Source: Halomicrobium mukohataei DSM 12286 (GTDB taxonomy: Archaea > Halobacteriota > Halobacteria > Halobacteriales > Haloarculaceae). Taken from it: 32,000 nucleotides of DNA. The notes under the pieces were generated by a model. It did not search any database, was not told where the DNA came from, and saw only the letters and a program-made list of their open reading frames with translations. Of the stretch, positions 168 to 19,859 are shown one piece after another (positions within the stretch are counted from its first letter, which is position 1; each line of letters opens with the position of its first letter). The stretch is from positions 189,863 to 221,862 of the forward strand of contig NC_013201.1 of assembly GCF_000023965.1 (NCBI RefSeq), in the 5' to 3' direction. The position numbers and the translations under genes are program-made.

Positions 168-1454
168 ATGAACGCCGAAGACTTCCCGACTCCCGACGCC
201 GACGTTGCGAGCGTCGCGCCGGAGACGCTGAAGGATCGAATCGACGACGGAGAGAGCGTGACGCTGCTCGACGCGCGGATGAGCACGGAGTACGAGAAGT
301 GGCACGTCGACGGCGAGAACGTCACGTCGATCAACGTCCCCTACTTCGAGTTCCTCGACGACGAGATCGACGAGAGCGTGCTCGACCGGATCCCCGACGA
401 CCGCGAAGTGACAGTCCTCTGTGCGAAGGGCGGTGCCAGCGAGTACGTCGCGGGCACGCTCGTCGAGCAGGGCTACGACGTGGACCACCTCGAAGACGGG
501 ATGAACGGCTGGGCGAGCATCTACGAGGCCGTCGAGGTCCAGCGCTACGACGGGGCGGGAACGCTACTCCAGTACCAGCGACCCTCCACGGGCTGTCTGG
601 GCTATCTGCTCTACGACGACGGGGAGGCGGCGGTCATCGACCCGCTGCGGGCGTTCACCGACCGCTATCTCGCGGACGCCGCAGAACTCCGTTCCGCGAG
701 CCCTGCCTCGCAGGCTCGGCAGGACGAGGACTTCGGCGTCGACCTGCAGTACGCGCTGGACACCCACGTCCACGCCGACCACATCTCGGGCGTGCGCGCC
801 CTCGACGACGAGGGTGTCGAGGGCGTCATTCCCGAGGCGGCCGTCGACCGCGGCGTCACGTACGCCGCGGACGGAAGTTCCGCGAGCCCTGCCTCGCAGG
901 CTCGGCAGGACGCAGACGCCCTCACCACGGCCGCGGACGGCGACACCTTCCAGGTCGGCGACGCCACCATCGAGGCCGTCCACACGCCCGGCCACACGAC
1001 CGGGATGACCTCGTATCTGATCGACGACAGCCTGCTCGCGACCGGCGACGGACTGTTCATCGAGAGCGTCGCCCGCCCCGACCTCGAAGAGGGCGACGAC
1101 GGCGCGCCCGACGCCGCGCGCACGCTCTACGAGTCGCTACAGGAGCGCGTGCTGACGCTGCCCGACGACACGCTGATCGGCGGAGCCCACTTCAGCGACG
1201 CCGCCGAACCCGCCGACGACGGCACCTACACCGCCCCAATCGGCGAGCTCGTCGCGGAGATGGACGCGCTCACGATGGACGAAGAGGCGTTCGTCGACCT
1301 GATCCTCTCGGACATGCCGCCGCGGCCGGCCAACTACGAGGAGATCATCGCGACGAACCTCGGCCAGAACGCCGTCGACGACGAGAAGGCGTTCACGCTC
1401 GAACTCGGCCCGAACAACTGCGCCGCGAGCCAGGGCTCGCTGGCGGATGACTGA
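168..1454 (+). CDS. Rhodanese domain / metallo-beta-lactamase fold fusion protein (persulfide- or sulfur-dioxygenase-like hydrolase)
   Basis: ORF 159..1454. N-terminal rhodanese-like segment with the active-site-type loop VLCAKGGAS. MBL signature THVHADHISG (HxHxDH) and downstream HTPGHTTG. Acidic composition. ATG 168 is preferred over GTG 159 because of promoter spacing. The gene contains two in-frame 36-bp repeat copies. Confidence 0.9.
   Translation: MNAEDFPTPDADVASVAPETLKDRIDDGESVTLLDARMSTEYEKWHVDGENVTSINVPYFEFLDDEIDESVLDRIPDDREVTVLCAKGGASEYVAGTLVEQGYDVDHLEDGMNGWASIYEAVEVQRYDGAGTLLQYQRPSTGCLGYLLYDDGEAAVIDPLRAFTDRYLADAAELRSASPASQARQDEDFGVDLQYALDTHVHADHISGVRALDDEGVEGVIPEAAVDRGVTYAADGSSASPASQARQDADALTTAADGDTFQVGDATIEAVHTPGHTTGMTSYLIDDSLLATGDGLFIESVARPDLEEGDDGAPDAARTLYESLQERVLTLPDDTLIGGAHFSDAAEPADDGTYTAPIGELVAEMDALTMDEEAFVDLILSDMPPRPANYEEIIATNLGQNAVDDEKAFTLELGPNNCAASQGSLADD
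691..726. repeat. Copy 1 of the 36-bp hairpin-forming element GTTCCGCGAGCCCTGCCTCGCAGGCTCGGCAGGACG, in frame inside the CDS
   Basis: Exact 36/36 identity with 877-912. The core CGAGCC(C)TGC-CTC-GCAGGCTCG is an imperfect palindrome. It encodes SASPASQARQD. Confidence 0.9.
877..912. repeat. Copy 2 of the 36-bp hairpin-forming element, in frame inside the CDS
   Basis: Identical to 691-726. The offset is 186 bp (62 codons), so the reading frame and the encoded peptide are the same. Confidence 0.9.
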
Positions 1455-2046: not shown

Positions 2047-2483
2047 GCGACCGGAGGGAGCGACACGTGGGCAGCGAGGCCGACCAGCGAGAGGCCTCGA
2101 CGGACGCGAACGGGAGCGAACGGAGGGAGCGACACGTGGGCAGCGAGGCCGACCAGCGAGAGGCCTCGACGGACGCGAACGGGAGCGAACGGAGGGAGCG
2201 ACACGTGGGCAGCGAGGCCGACCAGCGAGAGGCCTCGACGGACGCGAACGGGAGCGAACGGAGGGAGCGACACGTGGGCAGCGAGGCCGACCAGCGAGAG
2301 GCCTCGACGGACGCGAACGGGAGCGAACGGAGGGAGCGACACGTGGGCAGCGAGGCCGACCAGCGAGAGGCCTCGACAGACGCGAACGGGAGCGAACGGA
2401 GGGAGCGACACGTGGGCAGCGAGGCCGACCAGCGAGAGGCCTCGACAGACGCGAACGGGAGCGAACGGAGGGAGCGACACGTG
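2047..2483. repeat. Tandem array, 69-bp unit x about 6.3
   Basis: GTG codons at 2067, 2136, 2205, 2274, 2343, 2412 and 2481 (period 69), each with GGAGGG 8 nt upstream. Units are identical except G>A at 2378 and 2447. Each unit contains the hairpin CGAGGCC-N11-GGCCTCG (first copy 2075-2099). The array is open in several frames on both strands. Confidence 0.97.
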
Positions 2484-4123: not shown

Positions 4124-4316
4124 GCACCAGCGGAGACACCGCGCGGTCACACGTCGAGACGGCAGCCGATCGATCTGCGTCGGAAAGCGAACGGCGTCCC
4201 GGGCGTCTGCACGAGACAGTATTTTCCAGAAGAAACAAGACCGGTAGCCGGCAGAGAGTCTGCGTTCACCGCCGGCACCGTGTCGTCGCCAGTCTGGTGA
4301 GTGTTCGTGCGGCATT

Positions 4317-4340
4317 GTGAAATTCGCACACAAGTCTTTT
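4317..4340 (+). promoter_or_regulatory. Candidate promoter/operator: GTGAAATTC-N10-CTTTT(AA), ending 33 nt before ATG 4373
   Basis: Same motif and same spacing as 112-135. TCTTTTAA is TATA-like. Confidence 0.45.
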
Positions 4341-12826: not shown

Positions 12827-12848
12827 AGCTTAGCTTAGTAGCTAAGCT
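12827..12848. repeat. AT-rich perfect 9-bp inverted repeat AGCTTAGCT-tagt-AGCTAAGCT followed by ATATTTTAT
   Basis: Read directly. It lies at the 3' boundary of the SDR remnant. Confidence 0.8.
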
Positions 12849-14599: not shown

Positions 14600-15466
14600 G
14601 TGTTCGACGACATCCTCGTTCCGACGGACGGCAGTACCTGTGCAGCGGTCGCGCTCAGCGCCGCCGAAGAGGTAGCGAAGCGATACGGAGCGACGATTCA
14701 TCTCCTGTCCGTGGCCGATTCACGGATCGAGGACCACACCGTCGGCGACGAGAGTCAGCACGCGGCACACGAGACGATCGTTCGCGACGCCAGCGAGGAT
14801 CTCTCGGCAGAGATCGGCGTCGTAGAAGCAGTCGAGCGGGGACTGCCACACGAGGTGATCGTAGAGTACGCCGACGAGGCGTCGGTCGACCTCGTGGTCA
14901 TGGGCACGCACGGGCGGACCGGCGTCCAGCGATACGTGCTGGGCAGCGTCACCGAGAAGGTGCTCCGGCTGGCCGAGACGCCCGTGCTCACGGTCCGGGA
15001 AGCGGACGCCGACGAGCGCCCGACGCCCTTCGAAGACGTGCTGATCCCGACCGACGGCAGCGACGCCGCGAACGCGGCGATCGGTCCGGCCCTCGACATC
15101 GCCGGTGCGTACGACGCCAGCGTCCACGCGCTCTCGGCGATAGAGCCGCTGTCGATGGGCGTCGATGTTCGGTCACACGTCATCGTGGAGGCACTCGAAG
15201 AACGGGCCCAGTCGGCCGTCGACGACGTGGCCGAGCGAGCCGCGAACGCGTCGCTCGGACCGATCGAAACCGCCGTCGAGTTCGGCGATCCGTACCGACA
15301 GATCAGGACCTACGTCGAGGAGAACGACATCGATCTGGTCGTCATGGGCACCCACGGCCGAAGCGGCGTCGAGCGGTTCCTGCTGGGCAGTGTCACCGAA
15401 AAGCTCGTCCGAACGTCGTCGGCTCCCGTGATGACCGTGAGACGGCCAGAGAACAGCGGGAGTTAG
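14600..15466 (+). CDS. Universal stress protein, tandem UspA domains
   Basis: Two repeats of the pattern ILVPTDGS ... [14 protein letters not shown] ... LGSVTEKV ... PVLTV/PVMTV. GTG start. Confidence 0.9.
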   Translation: MFDDILVPTDGSTCAAVALSAAEEVAKRYGATIHLLSVADSRIEDHTVGDESQHAAHETIVRDASEDLSAEIGVVEAVERGLPHEVIVEYADEASVDLVVMGTHGRTGVQRYVLGSVTEKVLRLAETPVLTVREADADERPTPFEDVLIPTDGSDAANAAIGPALDIAGAYDASVHALSAIEPLSMGVDVRSHVIVEALEERAQSAVDDVAERAANASLGPIETAVEFGDPYRQIRTYVEENDIDLVVMGTHGRSGVERFLLGSVTEKLVRTSSAPVMTVRRPENSGS

Positions 15467-15580
15467 CGACAGTTTCGCCGCTTTTACACTCATTTTAGAC
15501 AGATCAGACACATAAATAGATGTCTGTGACCAATTAGACGTATTCTTACTTGGTACTCGTCTTCTGAAGCCGTATCGCCG

Positions 15581-16015
15581 TTAGACTTCTGTCCGCCCGG
15601 TCAGTTCGTCGGGAACGAGCCGGTAGAACTCGAACGACACTTCTCGGAGTGGTCGCTCGAAGATGTCCACCAGCGGGATGTCGACGTGTTCGAGTCCTTC
15701 CAGCGTCTCGGTCTCGATACCCTCGCGCTCGACGTCTTCGAGTCTGCCGCGGGCGACCACGCTCTGCCAGTCCCCGGACTCCTCCCGATACGTGACGAAC
15801 GACGCCGGCCGGTCGTCGAGATCGCCTTTCGTGGTGTCGACGCCCACGGCCAGTCGGAAGTAGAACGTACTGGCCGCCGCGTCGTACCCGTACGACACCG
15901 GGATCGAGTACGGTGGCTCGTCCCCGGAAGCGAGCGAGAGGACGCCCGTCCCGCCGCTGTCGAGGATCTCGTCGCGCTCCGCGGCCGACATACTGACCGG
16001 AGTGTCTTTCGCCAT
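15581..16015 (-). CDS. Pyridoxamine 5'-phosphate oxidase-like (split-barrel FMN/F420-binding) family protein
   Basis: 144 aa counted from MAKDTPVSMSAAERDEILDSGGTGVLSLASGDEPPYSIPVSYGYD, the typical N-terminal pattern of the PNPOx-like family. The internal ATG 16015 is preferred over the ORF start 16102 because a TATA-like CACTTATTG lies about 25-33 nt upstream. Confidence 0.75.
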   Translation of the reverse strand: MAKDTPVSMSAAERDEILDSGGTGVLSLASGDEPPYSIPVSYGYDAAASTFYFRLAVGVDTTKGDLDDRPASFVTYREESGDWQSVVARGRLEDVEREGIETETLEGLEHVDIPLVDIFERPLREVSFEFYRLVPDELTGRTEV

Positions 16016-16229
16016 GATTGACAGGACGGCGGGGAACACAATAAGTGCACTGTCGGTGGGGTCGCTGTCGCACGCGAGGAGCGCCGAGCAATGGGTCGCC
16101 ACAGCGGGATCGGACCAGAGTTACTACCGCCGGCTGTACATCTGCGAACGCTTTCCCCACCCCTGGGTGGTGAGTATCGTCACGAAGTGACAGCCAACAG
16201 TATAAGCCCCAGCGGAGCGAATAGTCGGT

Positions 16230-17135
16230 ATGAGCCCAGCGATCGATTCGATACTCGTGCCGACCGACGGGAGCGAGGGAGCCACAGTCGGCGCACAGCG
16301 CGGGATCGACCTGGCGGCGACGGCCGACGCGGACGTACACGTGCTGTCGGTGGTCGACACCCGCGAGATCGAGCCGCCGCTGTCGCGGTTCGGTGGCAAG
16401 GACCGTTCAGACAGAGAACAGCTGTTCGAGGACGAGGCCAAGCGGGCAGTCGATAGCGTCGCCGGGCTCGCACGGACACACCTCTCAGGTCGAGTCACCG
16501 GAACAGTCGAGCGAGGCGTGCCGTTCCAGGCGATCAACGAGTACGTCGAGGCACACGACATCGACGTGGTCGCGATGGGGACCCACGGACGGACCGGCCT
16601 CCAGCGACTCCTGCTGGGCAGCGTCGCCGAGAAGGTCCTTCGGACTGCGAGTGTCCCGGTCGTTGCAGTCCCGTCGACCGCCGACGAGATCGAGCCCGGC
16701 GAGGGAAGCTACGAGAACATCTTGCTGCCGACGGACAACAGCGATGGCGCGTCGGTCGCGATCGACTGGGGGATGACGCTGGCGACGCTGTACGGTGCGA
16801 TGGTATACACCATCTACTCGGTCGATACGAGCCTGTTGTCCGGGTCCGAGAGAGCGAGCGAGATCCACGGAGCGCTGGAACGGGTCGGCCGAGACGCGCT
16901 CGATGCGGTCCGACGGCGTGCTCGGGCGGCCGACATCAGTGTCGCGGGCAACATTGGGAGCGGACCGGCCGCGCGCGTGATCCTCGCCGAGAGCGGCGAC
17001 CACGACATCGATCTGATCGTGATGGGGACCCACGGCCGTTCCGGTATCGACCGGTACCTCATCGGCAGCGTGACCGAGACAGTCGTTCGCAACGCCGACG
17101 TGCCGGTCTGCTGTGTCCCGATGACGGAGCTGTGA
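16230..17135 (+). CDS. Universal stress protein, tandem UspA domains
   Basis: [11 protein letters not shown] ... [12 protein letters not shown] ... LGSVAEKV ... and [11 protein letters not shown] ... [12 protein letters not shown] ... [12 protein letters not shown]-like AGTATAAG lies 24-31 nt upstream. Confidence 0.9.
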
Positions 17136-17852: not shown

Positions 17853-18305
17853 ATGTACGACCGAATCCTCCTCCCGACGGACATGAGCCCCGGTGTCGAC
17901 CGGGCGATCGAGCACGCGATCGACGCCGCCGAGCGATACGACGCCGCCCTCCACGTGCTGTACGTCGTCGACGCCGACGCCTACAGCTCCTACCCCGGCG
18001 ACGAGTACGTCCACGAGTTCGAAGGACTGGAACACGCGCTCGAAGAAGCCGGCCGCGACGCGGTCGAAGCGATCACCGCCAGGGCGGCCGACGCGGGGAT
18101 CGACACGGTGAGCGAGATCCGCCACGGTGTCCCACACGAGGAGATCCTCGCGTACGGCGACGAAGCCGACATCGACCTGACTGTCGTCGGGTCGAAAAAC
18201 CGGGCCGGAGAGTACCGTCGGCTGCTCGGCAGCGTCGCAGAGCGGGTTGCTCGACTGTCGGAACGGCCCGTAACGGTCGTGAAGACGCCGGTCGAATCGT
18301 CCTGA
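17853..18305 (+). CDS. Universal stress protein, single UspA domain
   Basis: MYDRILLPTDMSPG ... DLTVVGSKNRAG ... LGSVAERV ... PVTVV. ATG 17853 sits 25-35 nt after the TATA-like CGATTTATCTG. Confidence 0.88.
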   Translation: MYDRILLPTDMSPGVDRAIEHAIDAAERYDAALHVLYVVDADAYSSYPGDEYVHEFEGLEHALEEAGRDAVEAITARAADAGIDTVSEIRHGVPHEEILAYGDEADIDLTVVGSKNRAGEYRRLLGSVAERVARLSERPVTVVKTPVESS

Positions 18306-18384
18306 TACTGCCGGCTGTAACTGTGTCAAGAGGGTCGCGACCACGGGGTCGCAACAGTCTGTACAGACGTACGGCCGGCAGTAT
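18305..18384 (+). other. 80-nt structured element. The outer stem is 15 bp (ATACTGCCGGCTGTA / TACGGCCGGCAGTAT, one G-U pair) and encloses the 12-bp perfect palindrome GTCTGTACAGAC.
   Basis: Paired by hand. It begins at the last base of the USP stop codon. Two GGGTCGC direct repeats lie inside it. Confidence 0.65.
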
Positions 18385-18455
18385 GAGCACGTCGACGACC
18401 GCGCGGCGGTGGCACGCGACACCGCTATGTGTGTCGACCGAGCAGTACGATCACG

Positions 18456-19013: not shown

Positions 19014-19859
19014 CGAGCCAGCAGAGGGTGAGCGGAAGTGGCGATCCGGCGAGAGAGAGTGGCCAGACGTGACTGTCGAGTGACGTTTAGTCGGCGGGTT
19101 TCCCGAAAGCGACACCGGACGGCGCGTATTGGAGAATCTATCACATCGAATGACAGTATCGGGACCTCTTACAGCATCAGTGGCAGTCATCGAGCCATAC
19201 AAGACAGAACTCGTGCAAAGACGAACGACATCCTGCACTGGGGAAGCGAACGAGCGACCGTCGAGCATCGCTCGACGAACAGTGATCGATACCGGACGAC
19301 AGTACGCTAGTCCAACGATGCTGGATCGCAGTGGGAAAAGAACGAACATCGGACCCGACGGGATAGCGGAGCGGCGTCCCCCGCTGCTCGTCACCGGCCG
19401 ACGGCCTGCTTTACACGCTTAGTTCTGTAAAGCTTGGTGGCAACTAGCTGCTAGCACGGGCGAGCGAGGACACTGGTCAGAGTGTGATCCCGTCGAGAGC
19501 GTCCTACAATGGTCGACTCGACGACGGTAGCTAACTGGATGGGATTTGTATATGACGAATATCGTGTTACCATACAGACTTTTGTTCTCTTTTAGATAAT
19601 ATTGGTCGTGTTTTACTGTACAGTATTTACCAACACAGACCGTACGCGGAGTTCGTCGAGACGTAGCGGCGGTAGCGTGACCGCTCTCCCGCATACAGGC
19701 AGTTTCGAGCGATATTGGACGATCGTATGGCATAAGTGGATGTTCTCCGTGGGACGACTTCGGCTTCGCCGTGCGTCGACGCGCGTGGACGGTCGACCGT
19801 ACCGTCGGACAGCAGCGTTCCAGTTGGTGCGGCAAGGCCCTGGACTACCCGGTGTCGGA

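What the first reader, a model, noticed from the sequence alone, without database searches (positions are those of the whole stretch)
688..915. Identical 36-bp hairpin-forming element present twice, in frame, inside a rhodanese-MBL enzyme gene
Seen in the sequence:
- GTTCCGCGAGCCCTGCCTCGCAGGCTCGGCAGGACG occurs at 691-726 and 877-912 with 36/36 identity, 186 bp apart and in the same frame.
- Both copies encode SASPASQARQD within about 15-residue low-complexity segments that flank the HxHxDH metal-binding motif.
- The core is an imperfect palindrome: stem CGAGCC(C)TGC / GCAGGCTCG with loop CTC.
- The surrounding protein is not a repeat protein, and the flanking DNA is unrelated.

Inference:
- From my memory of orthologous haloarchaeal rhodanese-MBL proteins (about 400 aa versus 428 here), both segments look like insertions of about 45 bp.
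- That resembles the in-frame palindromic elements known from Rickettsia (RPEs) and REP/MITE-like elements. I am not aware of this having been described for haloarchaea.
- The neighbouring gene junction also carries a hairpin-containing repeat (2047-2483). The operon may therefore be a hotspot for this kind of event.
Basis: partly seen in the sequence, partly recalled or inferred. Interest (0 to 1): 0.72.

Follow-up and report, generated by a model that had tools for sequence, protein, structure and literature searches.

The report
In-frame double-hairpin mini-insertions in haloarchaea
The two identical 36-base stretches are copies of a 48-base, hairpin-forming DNA unit inserted in frame at two places in a sulfur-enzyme gene, and similar units turn up in sensor-kinase and housekeeping genes of many salt-loving archaea, apparently an undescribed family of tiny gene-invading repeats.

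Summary
The 36-mer occurs exactly twice, at 691-726 and 877-912, with none expected by chance. Each copy is the core of a 48-bp (16-codon) unit, at 678-725 and 864-911, inside a rhodanese–MBL gene of a Halomicrobium mukohataei plasmid.

Among 120 orthologues, 76 have no unit, 33 have it only at site 2, 7 only at site 1, and 4 at both. All four states occur among Halomicrobium alleles that are 92-96% identical.

The same unit, in the same reading frame (..STSP[ADG]SQARQD), also lies behind the N-box of haloarchaeal histidine kinases, singly or in mixed tandem arrays. It also occurs in ArgRS, LeuRS, PheRS-beta, phosphoglucosamine mutase, Usp and other genes.

Each unit is two hairpins. Their stems vary but stay complementary (94% paired against 84% in shuffles; 96 doubly changed cells against 32).

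Non-kinase insertion sites read GAC|unit|GCCGnnG, which resembles a junction between two units.

I found no Rfam, Pfam or NCBIfam model and no paper describing this. How the unit spreads is unresolved. I favour hairpin-promoted template switching through the GACGCCG microhomology. A hairpin-recognising single-strand recombinase is the main rival.

The parts
168..1454 (+). Host gene: rhodanese + metallo-beta-lactamase-fold protein (persulfide-dioxygenase-like), 428 aa. It is 100% identical to a Halomicrobium mukohataei plasmid protein.
678..725 (+). Unit 1 (site 1): 48-bp in-frame insertion GCC GCA GAA CTC CGT TCC GCG AGC CCT GCC TCG CAG GCT CGG CAG GAC, encoding AAELRSASPASQARQD. It is absent from orthologues such as LC1Hm (L005).
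680..698 (+). Hairpin A of unit 1: CGCAGAAC (680-687), loop TCC, GTTCCGCG (691-698), with one A.C mismatch at 683/695.
   Evidence: relatives have the perfect GCGGAAC/GTTCCGC
702..723 (+). Second stem of unit 1: CCTGCC (702-707), loop TCGCAGGCTC (708-717), GGCAGG (718-723).
726..737 (+). Right-hand copy of the target (GAG GAC TTC GGC). It is degraded here by a 3-bp deletion and substitutions. In KBTZ05 it reads GCC GCG GAA CTC and repeats the unit's first 12 bases (15 with the GAC before them).
765..782 (+). HVHADH metal-binding motif, lying between the two insertions.
864..911 (+). Unit 2 (site 2): 48-bp in-frame insertion GCC GCG GAC GGA AGT TCC GCG AGC CCT GCC TCG CAG GCT CGG CAG GAC, encoding AADGSSASPASQARQD. 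It is absent from H. katesii, Halobacterium and LC1Hm alleles.
866..884 (+). Hairpin A of unit 2: CGCGGA (866-871), 7-nt loop, TCCGCG (879-884). It looks like a decayed form of GCGGAAC-GAA-GTTCCGC, which is seen in Halorussus and Halosimplex.
888..909 (+). Second stem of unit 2: CCTGCC (888-893), loop TCGCAGGCTC (894-903), GGCAGG (904-909).
2047..2483 (+). Neighbouring 69-bp tandem repeat, 6.3 copies.

Best explanation
The two 36-mers are the cores of two copies of a 48-bp, translation-compatible double-hairpin insertion unit. The unit belongs to a family found across Halobacteria. Its main home is the loop just after the N-box (..NAVEHG) of histidine kinases, where 0 to at least 5 unlike units sit in tandem. 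It occasionally lands in other genes.

Shown:
- The unit is an insertion relative to orthologues.
- It consists of an 8-bp stem with a 3-nt loop, the linker GAGC, then a 6-bp stem with the loop TCGCAGGCTC.
- The stems covary.
- It is read in one frame as a 16-residue Ser/Pro/Gln/Asp-rich peptide.
- Non-kinase sites look like GAC|GCCGnnG, the same sequence as a junction between two units.

Inferred mechanism (my estimate about 45%): the unit is copied in without a dedicated transposase.
- Hairpins stall a polymerase.
- The nascent strand switches to a donor unit through the GACGCCG(..G) microhomology that brackets every unit, then switches back one period (48 bp) later. This adds exactly 16 codons next to a sequence that resembles the unit's own start.
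- Unequal exchange among kinase paralogues builds and shuffles the arrays.
- Template switching within a strand (quasipalindrome correction), or selection for stalling, keeps the arms complementary.
- Loss is by deletion between the flanking direct repeats or by allelic recombination.
- Only frame and orientation combinations that give a harmless acidic, disordered loop survive.

In this gene there were probably just two founding insertions, one per site. Their present patchwork reflects loss and recombination between alleles.
For: Insertion polymorphism:
- Alignments A1/A2 show exact 16-aa / 48-bp indels at two sites.
- 76/33/7/4 of 120 orthologues carry none / site 2 / site 1 / both.
- KBTZ05 (both sites) and LC1Hm (neither) are 96.2% identical at the DNA level.

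Family:
- The core 22-mer is found in 12 loci of 185,579 species genomes. These include kinase arrays and a distant rhodanese–MBL homologue at about the same position.
- 60 metagenome loci match.
- The mutase of the Halobacterium zhouii plasmid carries two units ahead of its native DAVER, which its closest orthologues have singly.
- Other hosts are ArgRS, LeuRS, PheRS-beta, a PALP enzyme, SAM_HAT, DUF58 and Usp.

Structure:
- 94.2% of cells paired against 84.5% in shuffles; 96 doubly changed cells against 32; 0 of 500 shuffles reached these values; slid controls gave 23-38%.
- 12 distinct perfectly complementary arm pairs.
- Neighbouring units in arrays have different stems but the same loops.

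Target:
- Consensus GAC|GCCGnnG over 15 independent events.

For template switching or recombination specifically:
- All 83 canonical copies are sense and in frame.
- Units occur in tandem arrays.
- Some hairpins look like hybrids of common subtypes, for example GTCGAAC with GTTCCAC (a C.C mismatch) and GTTGAAC with GCTCGAC.
- At both sites of this gene, Thr-type 3' arms (mismatched) coexist with Ala-type arms (perfect) opposite a GCG 5' arm.
- G.T mismatches (16) do not exceed A.C (23), so nothing points to selection on RNA.
- Template switching is documented to create and maintain hairpin complementarity (abstracts of PMC8794818 and PMC8604942).
- There were 0 hits in viral contigs, and only 2 copies on the 222-kb plasmid.
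Against: - No step of the proposed copying has been observed.
- Microhomology of 7-8 nt is short for exchange between distant loci.
- A unit's own first 12 nt match the bases after it no better than another unit's do (6.8 against 6.4). Only the family-wide bases are shared, which a site-specific enzyme would explain equally well.
- Loop and linker sequences are conserved while stems vary even at non-synonymous positions. That pattern is typical of elements recognised by a protein as folded single strands.
- Unit-like double hairpins also occur antisense inside a Usp gene (L074) and in DNA without a long ORF (L020).
- Some insertions (L039, L076) show almost no similarity between the unit's start and the downstream flank.
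- The loci were found by a sequence pattern, so the census is biased towards one subfamily.
Confidence: 0.45

Rival explanations
1. The unit is a non-autonomous micro-transposon moved in trans by an enzyme that recognises folded single-stranded DNA. Candidates are an IS200/IS605-type Y1 transposase, a RAYT-like enzyme, or a tyrosine recombinase acting as integron or Xer enzymes do on hairpins. The two hairpins are the enzyme's handles. The unit leaves and enters as a 48-nt single strand or circle whose joined ends recreate GGAC|GCCG. It then recombines with the same core in a target. This gives precise insertion and precise excision.
For: - Structure is conserved while stems vary, and loops and linker stay fixed.
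- The unit has the same phase in every event, and the target consensus equals the unit-unit junction.
- Presence and absence are exact to the base at both sites.
- All four states occur among 92-96% identical alleles.
- Relatives occur antisense and in non-coding DNA.
- The family is present in many genera and unrelated genes.
- A TnpB (IS200/IS605-family) gene is present on the same plasmid, which is weak and circumstantial.
Against: - No candidate enzyme was linked to the units.
- Copy number is very low: 2 on 222 kb, and one core match per locus (no contig shown twice) among the 12 loci of the genome scan.
- All canonical copies lie inside genes, in one frame and orientation, so strong post-insertion selection would have to be assumed.
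- The distances from hairpin to unit end are much shorter than in IS608-type ends (from memory, not tested).
- Hybrid-looking hairpins suggest exchange inside the unit.
Confidence: 0.3
2. There is no ongoing mobility. The two segments are old features of this gene, from one insertion or duplication at each site long ago. They are kept similar by intragenic gene conversion. The patchy distribution among orthologues comes only from homologous recombination between alleles and from deletions. The kinase repeats are an ordinary low-complexity tandem repeat that shares ancestry.
For: - Site-1 units (AAEL[RSG]SASP) and site-2 units (AAE[RQ]SS[AT]SP, AADGSSASP) each look monophyletic.
- DNA divergence of the unit between genera (3 of 36) is similar to that of the flanking gene (about 85%).
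- The NJ tree behind the 9 and 13 inferred changes is poorly resolved, and haloarchaea recombine freely.
- There are no further copies on the plasmid.
- The window's site-2 copy differs from its closest relatives' site-2 copies at one base, where it matches site 1. This is compatible with conversion.
Against: - The same 28-nt core sits in at least 13 unrelated genes, including aminoacyl-tRNA synthetases and a mutase whose close orthologues lack it.
- The units share a common target consensus.
- Other double-hairpin insertions occur at other positions of this same gene.
- Covariation in the stems is not expected of a drifting low-complexity repeat.
Confidence: 0.15
3. The hairpins work in the mRNA, for example as a protein-binding or stability element or a translational pause site. 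They are kept by selection on RNA structure, and the in-frame peptide is a by-product.
For: - The units lie on the sense strand in all canonical copies.
- Covariation exists.
- The 36-mer alone folds end to end as RNA with z = -2.0.
Against: - G.U-type mismatches (16) are not favoured over A.C (23).
- No Rfam family matches.
- Orthologues do without the units.
- The hosts have nothing in common functionally.
- A unit-like copy lies antisense in L074.
Confidence: 0.07
4. The repeat is a chance match or an assembly artefact.
For: None beyond the general GC-richness of the DNA.
Against: - 0 matches in 100 shuffles.
- The same gene with both units is present in independent assemblies: P0001 on 3 contigs, strain JP60 plasmid NZ_CP039376.1, and KBTZ05.
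Confidence: 0.01

Closest known systems
Rickettsia palindromic elements (RPEs)
   Same: Both are palindromic repeats inserted in frame into many unrelated, often essential genes. Both add a peptide segment without destroying the host protein. No transposase is known for either (review PMC10969869).
   Different: RPEs are about 100-150 bp, bacterial and unrelated in sequence. The units here are 48 bp (45-54), archaeal and made of two separate tight hairpins. They have a preferred home in one domain of one protein family, form tandem arrays, and have a recognisable target (GAC|GCCG).
REP / REPIN elements and their RAYT transposases
   Same: Both are short (20-40 nt) imperfect palindromes whose structure is conserved more than their sequence. 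Both would be recognised as folded single strands.
   Different: REPs are extragenic and high-copy, carry a GTAG or CGTC head (PMC3733652, abstract only) and come with a RAYT gene. The units here are intragenic, translated and low-copy. Only some have CGTC, by virtue of a GTC valine codon, and no RAYT was linked.
IS200/IS605-derived miniature elements (PATEs) and MITEs of haloarchaea
   Same: Both are non-autonomous and found in haloarchaea. Both have a hairpin near each end. Insertion next to a short specific motif and precise excision would fit.
   Different: Known PATEs and MITEs are hundreds of bp long, mostly intergenic or disruptive (for example MITEHsal2 in bop, PMC7002104), and traceable to a parent IS. 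No parent IS, terminal inverted repeats or classical target duplication were found here.
PARCEL palindromic amphipathic repeat coding elements
   Same: Both are palindromic coding repeats in tandem arrays that spread between genes and taxa.
   Different: PARCELs are bacterial or eukaryotic and were reported absent from archaeal genomes (PMC2996958). They encode amphipathic surface-protein repeats, and their sequence and size are unrelated.
Quasipalindrome / short-range template-switch mutagenesis
   Same: It produces and maintains perfect short inverted repeats through multi-base, apparently compensatory changes, including in coding DNA (abstracts of PMC8794818, PMC8604942 and PMC7202029).
   Different: It is a local mutational process. 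It has not been described as spreading one conserved 48-bp module to many genes and genera.

Membership tests
Rickettsia palindromic elements (RPE) | In-frame insertion into unrelated protein-coding genes | tested here: met
   All 83 canonical copies are in one frame. Hosts include kinases, rhodanese–MBL, mutase, ArgRS, LeuRS, PheRS-beta, Usp and others.
Rickettsia palindromic elements (RPE) | Length about 100-150 bp and sequence membership in one of the RPE families of Rickettsia | tested here: not met
   The unit is 48 bp and found in Halobacteria only. RPE sizes are taken from PMC10969869.
REP / REPIN | Extragenic location and high copy number | tested here: not met
   The units are intragenic. 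There are 2 copies on a 221.9-kb plasmid and one core match per locus (no contig shown twice) among the 12 loci of the species-genome scan.
REP / REPIN | Conserved GTAG or CGTC head next to the palindrome | tested here: not met
   The head is GACGCC. CGTC appears only where valine is GTC.
REP / REPIN | Cognate RAYT (TnpA_REP) gene in the genome | not testable with these tools
   No whole-genome gene content was available. None is annotated on the plasmid.
MITE | Terminal inverted repeats related to a parent IS | tested here: not met
   The two hairpins are separate and internal, and the unit's ends (GCCG.. / ..GGAC) are not inverted repeats of each other. No parent IS was found.
MITE | Target-site duplication of fixed length | tested here: inconclusive
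   KBTZ05 site 1 has a perfect 15-bp direct repeat. At site 2 and in the mutase, however, the left copy differs from the native sequence and looks unit-borne. Only GAC..GCCG is common to all events.
IS200/IS605-derived element (PATE-like) | Subterminal hairpins at both ends, insertion 3' of a short specific motif, no duplication, precise excision | tested here: inconclusive
   A hairpin lies near each end, and the unit follows xAC in 15 of 15 events. Presence and absence are exact. Excision itself has not been observed.
IS200/IS605-derived element (PATE-like) | Dependence on a TnpA(Y1) supplied in trans | not testable with these tools
   Only a TnpB gene is annotated on the plasmid.
CRISPR array | Several regularly spaced repeats, non-coding, with a leader and often cas genes | tested here: not met
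   There are two copies only, 186 bp apart, inside an ORF and translated in frame.
Archaeal bulge-helix-bulge intron | Two 3-nt bulges separated by a 4-bp helix formed by the intron-exon boundaries | tested here: not met
   By inspection, the bases flanking the unit (..GGAC / GCCG..) cannot pair. All copies are stop-free and a multiple of 3 long, as expected if they are translated.
Known RNA or protein family covering the unit | Match to a curated Rfam, Pfam or NCBIfam model | tested here: not met
   Rfam gave 0 matches at E<=1. In a kinase the Pfam HATPase_c match starts only after the array, and no Pfam or NCBIfam model covers the units.
Simple tandem repeat (slippage VNTR) | Head-to-tail near-identical copies | tested here: not met
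   In the window the copies are dispersed, 186 bp apart. In kinase arrays, neighbouring units have different stems.

The most novel reading that the evidence does not exclude
The units are the smallest known autonomous-looking mobile DNA: 48-nt, translation-compatible double-hairpin micro-transposons. An as yet unidentified archaeal enzyme would excise and integrate them precisely as folded single strands, recognising the two hairpins and recombining the unit's joined ends (GGAC|GCCG) with the same core in genes. They would continually remodel surface loops of haloarchaeal proteins, above all the ATP-binding domain of sensor kinases.
Probability: 0.3. Interest if true: 0.9.

Novelty: new variant of a known kind. 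Interest (0 to 1): 0.75.

Why it matters
If confirmed, this would be an archaeal counterpart of the Rickettsia in-frame palindromic elements, but three times smaller and with a clearer anatomy. It has two hairpins with covarying stems, a defined 48-bp phase, a recognisable target, and a reservoir in histidine-kinase genes.

It would show that short structured DNA modules can spread through essential genes (tRNA synthetases, metabolic enzymes) by adding harmless 16-residue loops. That makes a long-standing question directly testable in genetically tractable haloarchaea: how do such in-frame elements move, by enzyme or by replication template switching?

There are practical consequences too:
- The units split the HATPase_c domain match of kinases.
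- Many unit-bearing kinase fragments in the protein search came from 1-3 kb contigs, so the units may break metagenome assemblies.
- They create length polymorphisms that can be mistaken for alignment errors.

Tried and rejected
- **AlphaFold model.** The 24-sequence alignment gave mean pLDDT 37. It is too poor to say whether the insertions lie in surface loops. Instead I used alignments to solved persulfide dioxygenases. Site 2 falls in a gapped, length-variable segment before the DGD..VG hairpin. Site 1 lies just outside the aligned region.
- **tblastn with a three-unit peptide against plasmids.** Only 2 records were found, presumably because of the low-complexity filter.
- **Protein search with concatenated units.** Only 24 hits, nearly all short kinase fragments. 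This was not useful as a host census.
- **Parsimony on an NJ tree.** It gave 9 and 13 state changes. I do not take these as independent insertions, because the tree rests on 80-95% identical proteins and recombination is likely.
- **'33-bp core plus true 15-bp target duplication'.** I considered this and set it aside. In the mutase, the leftmost copy (DAVEH) is kinase-like while the native DAVER is rightmost. At site 2, the left copy differs from the empty site in stem and loop. In filled site-1 alleles, the left copy stays DAAEL while the right one varies like empty sites.
- **CRISPR, BHB intron and transcription-factor palindrome readings.** All were rejected (see the membership table). A protein-binding palindrome would be conserved, not covarying.
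It shows no covariation and breaks at both columns that were free to vary.
- **Searches for other copies of the P0033 and P0025 insertions in 0.63 Mb of held loci.** None were found.
- **Non-coding variant L022/L085/L086.** The three regions are about 95% identical, apparently orthologous, so they say nothing about mobility.
- **Viral contigs.** No match.
Full report
**1. The observation**

The 36-mer GTTCCGCGAGCCCTGCCTCGCAGGCTCGGCAGGACG occurs at 691-726 and 877-912 on the + strand. It occurs nowhere else in the window, even with 3 mismatches allowed. None of 100 dinucleotide-preserving shuffles gave a match.

Both copies lie in the frame of the ORF 168-1454. This ORF carries a rhodanese domain and a metallo-beta-lactamase-fold domain. 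It is 100% identical to a protein of Halomicrobium mukohataei found on a 221,862-bp contig. The same gene lies on plasmid NZ_CP039376.1 of strain JP60, next to TusA, DsrE and two YeeE/YedE genes. The nearest solved relatives are persulfide dioxygenases.

The copies flank the HVHADH motif at 765-782.

**2. They are insertions, and they are polymorphic**

Orthologues come in lengths of 397, 413 and 428/429 residues. Alignment shows two clean 16-residue indels. At the DNA level each is exactly 48 bp.

| State | Orthologues (of 120) |
|---|---|
| Neither unit | 76 |
| Site 2 only | 33 |
| Site 1 only | 7 |
| Both | 4 |

Among the Halomicrobium alleles, which are 92-96% identical in DNA, all four states occur. 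The closest pair is KBTZ05 (both units) and LC1Hm (neither), at 96.2% identity.

A neighbour-joining tree needs at least 9 state changes at site 1 and 13 at site 2. I do not read these as independent insertions, for two reasons:
- The tree is weakly resolved.
- The site-1 units (AAEL[RSG]SASP..) and the site-2 units (AAE[RQ]SS[AT]SP.., AADGSSASP..) each look like one lineage.

One founding insertion per site, followed by loss and allelic recombination, is the economical reading.

**3. Boundaries**

At site 1 of KBTZ05 the sequence is GACGCCGCGGAACTC [AGTTCCACGAGCCCTGCCTCGCAGGCTCGGCAG] GACGCCGCGGAACTC. The empty allele has one GACGCCGCGGAACTC.

Taken alone, this looks like a 33-bp core with a 15-bp target duplication. 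Three other observations show that the left copy travels with the unit:
- At site 2 the left flank (TAC GCC GCG GAA CGA) differs from the empty site (TAC GCY GAC GAR CTG) in stem and loop. The right flank is native.
- In the mutase of the Halobacterium zhouii plasmid, two units precede a native DAVER that the closest orthologues have once. The unit-borne copies read DAVEH, as in kinases.
- In filled site-1 alleles the left copy stays DAAEL, while the right copy varies as empty sites do.

The moving block is therefore the 48 bp from GCC to GAC. In the window these are 678-725 and 864-911. The window's site-1 allele has also lost 3 bp from the right-hand copy, which is why it is 428 rather than 429 residues.

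**4. The family elsewhere**

- **Species genomes.** A scan of one genome per species for the core 22-mer gave only 12 loci, with one match each. Seven were this gene. One was a distant rhodanese–MBL homologue of Natrinema with a unit at about site 2. One was probably chance (a Bdellovibrionales MAG). Four (L011, L012, L017, L018) were histidine kinases, where the unit follows the N-box, for example ..NLFRNAVEHGSTSPASQARQDAVEHG.., sometimes in tandem.
- **Metagenomes.** A looser pattern found 60 loci in hypersaline metagenomes and none in viral contigs.
- **Contexts.** Of 66 distinct copy-plus-flank contexts, by my count about 36 are kinase arrays, 17 are rhodanese–MBL genes, and 13 are other genes.
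- **Other hosts.** These include arginyl-, leucyl- and phenylalanyl(beta)-tRNA synthetase genes, a PALP enzyme, a SAM hydroxide adenosyltransferase, DUF58, a Usp protein and a phosphoglucosamine mutase. Against Pyrococcus ArgRS the unit aligns with a gap.

Every one of the 83 canonical copies is in the same frame and orientation.

Weaker relatives behave differently. One lies antisense but in frame inside a Usp gene (L074). Others lie in DNA with no long ORF next to an IS remnant (L020).

On the complete 221.9-kb plasmid, only the two copies of this gene are significant. The chromosome could not be searched.

**5. Structure**

I stacked 64 distinct 51-mers without gaps (alignment A3). They show an 8-bp stem with a 3-nt loop (columns 6-13 with 17-24) and a 6-bp stem around the loop TCGCAGGCTC (columns 28-33 with 44-49).

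| Measure | Observed | Shuffles |
|---|---|---|
| Cells paired | 94.2% | 84.5% (0 of 500 reach it) |
| Cells changed on both sides | 96 | 32 (0 of 500) |
| Paired, partners slid by 1-3 columns | 23-38% | – |

The covarying pairs are:

| Pair | Combinations seen |
|---|---|
| 8-22 | UA 35, CG 11, AU 8, GC 1 |
| 9-21 | GC 31, CG 11, UA 5, AU 4 |
| 12-18 | AU 31, GC 28 |
| 32-45 | AU 25, CG 17, GC 6 |

Two of these pairs join synonymous third positions (Val GTN with Ser TCN; Glu GAR with Gly GGY). Protein-level selection therefore cannot explain them.

Twelve different arm pairs are perfectly complementary.

The first hairpin lay wholly outside my search pattern, so its covariation is not an ascertainment effect. 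In the second stem only 32-45 was fully free.

Units of other subfamilies in the same arrays show the same plan with other stems: CCTCGG/CCGAGG, CCTCCT/AGGAGG, GGAAGAGC/GCTCTTCC and GTCGGACAC/GTGTCCGAC. A covariance-model alignment gives 12 of 14 pairs with double changes, although that alignment is fitted to the model.

It breaks at both columns that were free to vary (18/64 and 39/64 unpaired).

Thermodynamically, the window's own copies are unremarkable (z = -0.6 and -1.2). Canonical kinase-type units fold into the two-hairpin shape with z = -2.3 to -2.7.

G.T mismatches (16) are not commoner than A.C (23). This argues against selection on the sense RNA.

**6. Other double hairpins in the same gene**

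Two metagenomic orthologues carry further in-frame insertions at other positions. Both are pairs of perfect hairpins:
- L083, 54 bp: GVREL|AEFSGSSRAERSD|GVRDM, with the 10-bp stem CCGAGAACTC/GAGTTCTCGG.
- L084, 51 bp: stems of 11 and 7 bp, each with a 3-nt loop.

The phenomenon is therefore wider than the one sequence family.

**7. Target**

For 15 independent non-kinase events the flanks read GAC | unit | GCCGnnG:
- Upstream, positions -3 to -1: G 13, A 12, C 15 of 15.
- Downstream, positions +1 to +4: G 13, C 11, C 11, G 14 of 15; position +7: G 14 of 15.

A unit's own first 12 nt match the following 12 nt no better than another unit's do (6.8 against 6.4). Both match far better than an upstream in-frame 12-mer does (3.5).

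The target is thus the family-wide junction sequence ..GGAC|GCCG.., as found between tandem units and at the kinase N-box (AAC|GCC GTS GAR CAC).

**8. Mechanism**

Shown: the insertion polymorphism, the unit anatomy, the covariation, the single frame, the range of hosts and the target consensus.

Inferred: how the unit is copied. Two models fit.

*(a) Template switching without an enzyme.*
- Each unit is bracketed by GACGCCG. A nascent strand stalled at a hairpin can jump to a donor through that microhomology and jump back one period later.
- This adds 48 bp beside a sequence like the unit's start.
- It accounts for the arrays, the kinase reservoir, the low copy number and the hybrid-looking hairpins. 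Examples are GTCGAAC with GTTCCAC (a C.C mismatch, which point mutation reaches only by transversion) and GTTGAAC with GCTCGAC.
- It also accounts for Thr-type (mismatched) and Ala-type (perfect) 3' arms coexisting opposite a GCG 5' arm at both sites of this gene.
- Template switching within a strand is documented to create and keep hairpin complementarity (abstracts only).

*(b) A recombinase or transposase acting on folded single strands.*
- Conserved loops and linker with free stems, a constant unit phase, a target equal to the joined unit ends, base-exact presence and absence, and the antisense and non-coding relatives are all what such an enzyme would give.
- No enzyme was linked to the units.

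I put (a) at about 45% and (b) at about 30%. An 'old feature plus recombination only' reading gets 15%, and an RNA function 7%.

**9. Comparison with known elements**

The unit works like a Rickettsia palindromic element, being in-frame, palindromic and present in many genes. It is not one, since its size, sequence and host taxon all differ.

It fails the extragenic, high-copy and GTAG/CGTC-head criteria of REPs. It has no terminal inverted repeats or parent IS, as MITEs do.

Its resemblance to an IS200/IS605-derived element (a hairpin near each end, insertion after a short motif) is untested. PARCEL coding palindromes were reported absent from archaea.

No Rfam family and no Pfam or NCBIfam model covers it.

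Eight full-text searches and four papers read in part found no description. These included the archaeal two-component census PMC5847659 and a search for the peptide string itself. The library lacks most subscription journals, so prior description cannot be excluded.

**10. Limits**

- Loci were found by a pattern taken from this window, so the census is biased to one subfamily and to hypersaline metagenomes.
- No complete genome was surveyed.
- Empty sites are known for only three non-kinase targets.
- No structural model of usable quality was obtained.
- Nothing shows that the units are translated, other than that they are always open and a multiple of three in length.

Noticed in passing
window 2047-2483: A 69-bp tandem repeat with 6.3 copies at 99% identity, lying between the two YeeE/YedE-type genes. 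Copy number varies among relatives: 2.3 in H. katesii, 1.3 in three other Halomicrobium alleles, and only its 23-nt end in Haloarcula. RefSeq treats it as intergenic, yet it is stop-free and in frame with the downstream gene (ORF 2022-2939). It contains the stem CGAGGCC-11 nt-GGCCTCG, but its folding z-score is only -0.8.
   Followed up: partly
window 848-870: A perfect 9-bp inverted repeat, CCGCGGCGT-cacgt-ACGCCGCGG. It is formed by native codons upstream of site 2 and the first bases of unit 2, so the insertion created a third hairpin.
   Followed up: no
window 19254-19280 (= L088 12673-12699); also L090 5321-5350: Lone hairpins such as CCGTCGAGC-atc-GCTCGACG. They match only the first-hairpin half of the unit model, at E about 0.1 and 0.005.
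   Followed up: no
whole window: Perfect short hairpins (stem >=7, loop 3-5) are twice as frequent as in codon-triplet shuffles: 27 against 13.5 +/- 3.0. In the 0.62 Mb of fetched loci the count is 420 against 181 for loops of 3-4 nt.
   Followed up: partly
L083 2077-2142 and L084 2482-2541: Metagenomic orthologues of the same gene carry other in-frame double-hairpin insertions of 54 and 51 bp at different positions. No other copy of either was found in the held loci.
   Followed up: partly
L074 1618-2148 (minus strand): A Usp gene holds two sense units near its N-terminus. It also holds a unit-like double hairpin in antisense orientation, read in frame as VLASASERGLDGREASVG inside the conserved G-x2-G region.
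   Followed up: partly
L020 1400-1532; L022/L085/L086 about 1474-1533: Unit-like double hairpins with 11-nt loops, which break the 48-bp frame, lie in apparently non-coding plasmid DNA. In L020 they sit between an IS-type transposase remnant and a TFB-like gene. The three Natrialbaceae copies lie in one orthologous region.
   Followed up: partly
L005 about 4290-4330: The junction between the two YeeE/YedE genes in Halomicrobium sp. LC1Hm carries GAGGTGC-tcactacgttc-GCGCCTC. This resembles the first hairpin of the non-coding L022-type variant.
   Followed up: no
window 14831-17092: Four related 140-nt stretches, also seen as 47-nt family D4 with a fifth copy at 18201. They correspond to tandem universal stress protein paralogues.
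   Followed up: no
window 12827-12848 and 18298-18391: An AT-rich perfect palindrome, AGCTTAGCT-tagt-AGCTAAGCT, and a 45-nt imperfect inverted repeat with a 4-nt spacer. Both appear to lie between annotated genes and were not examined.
   Followed up: no
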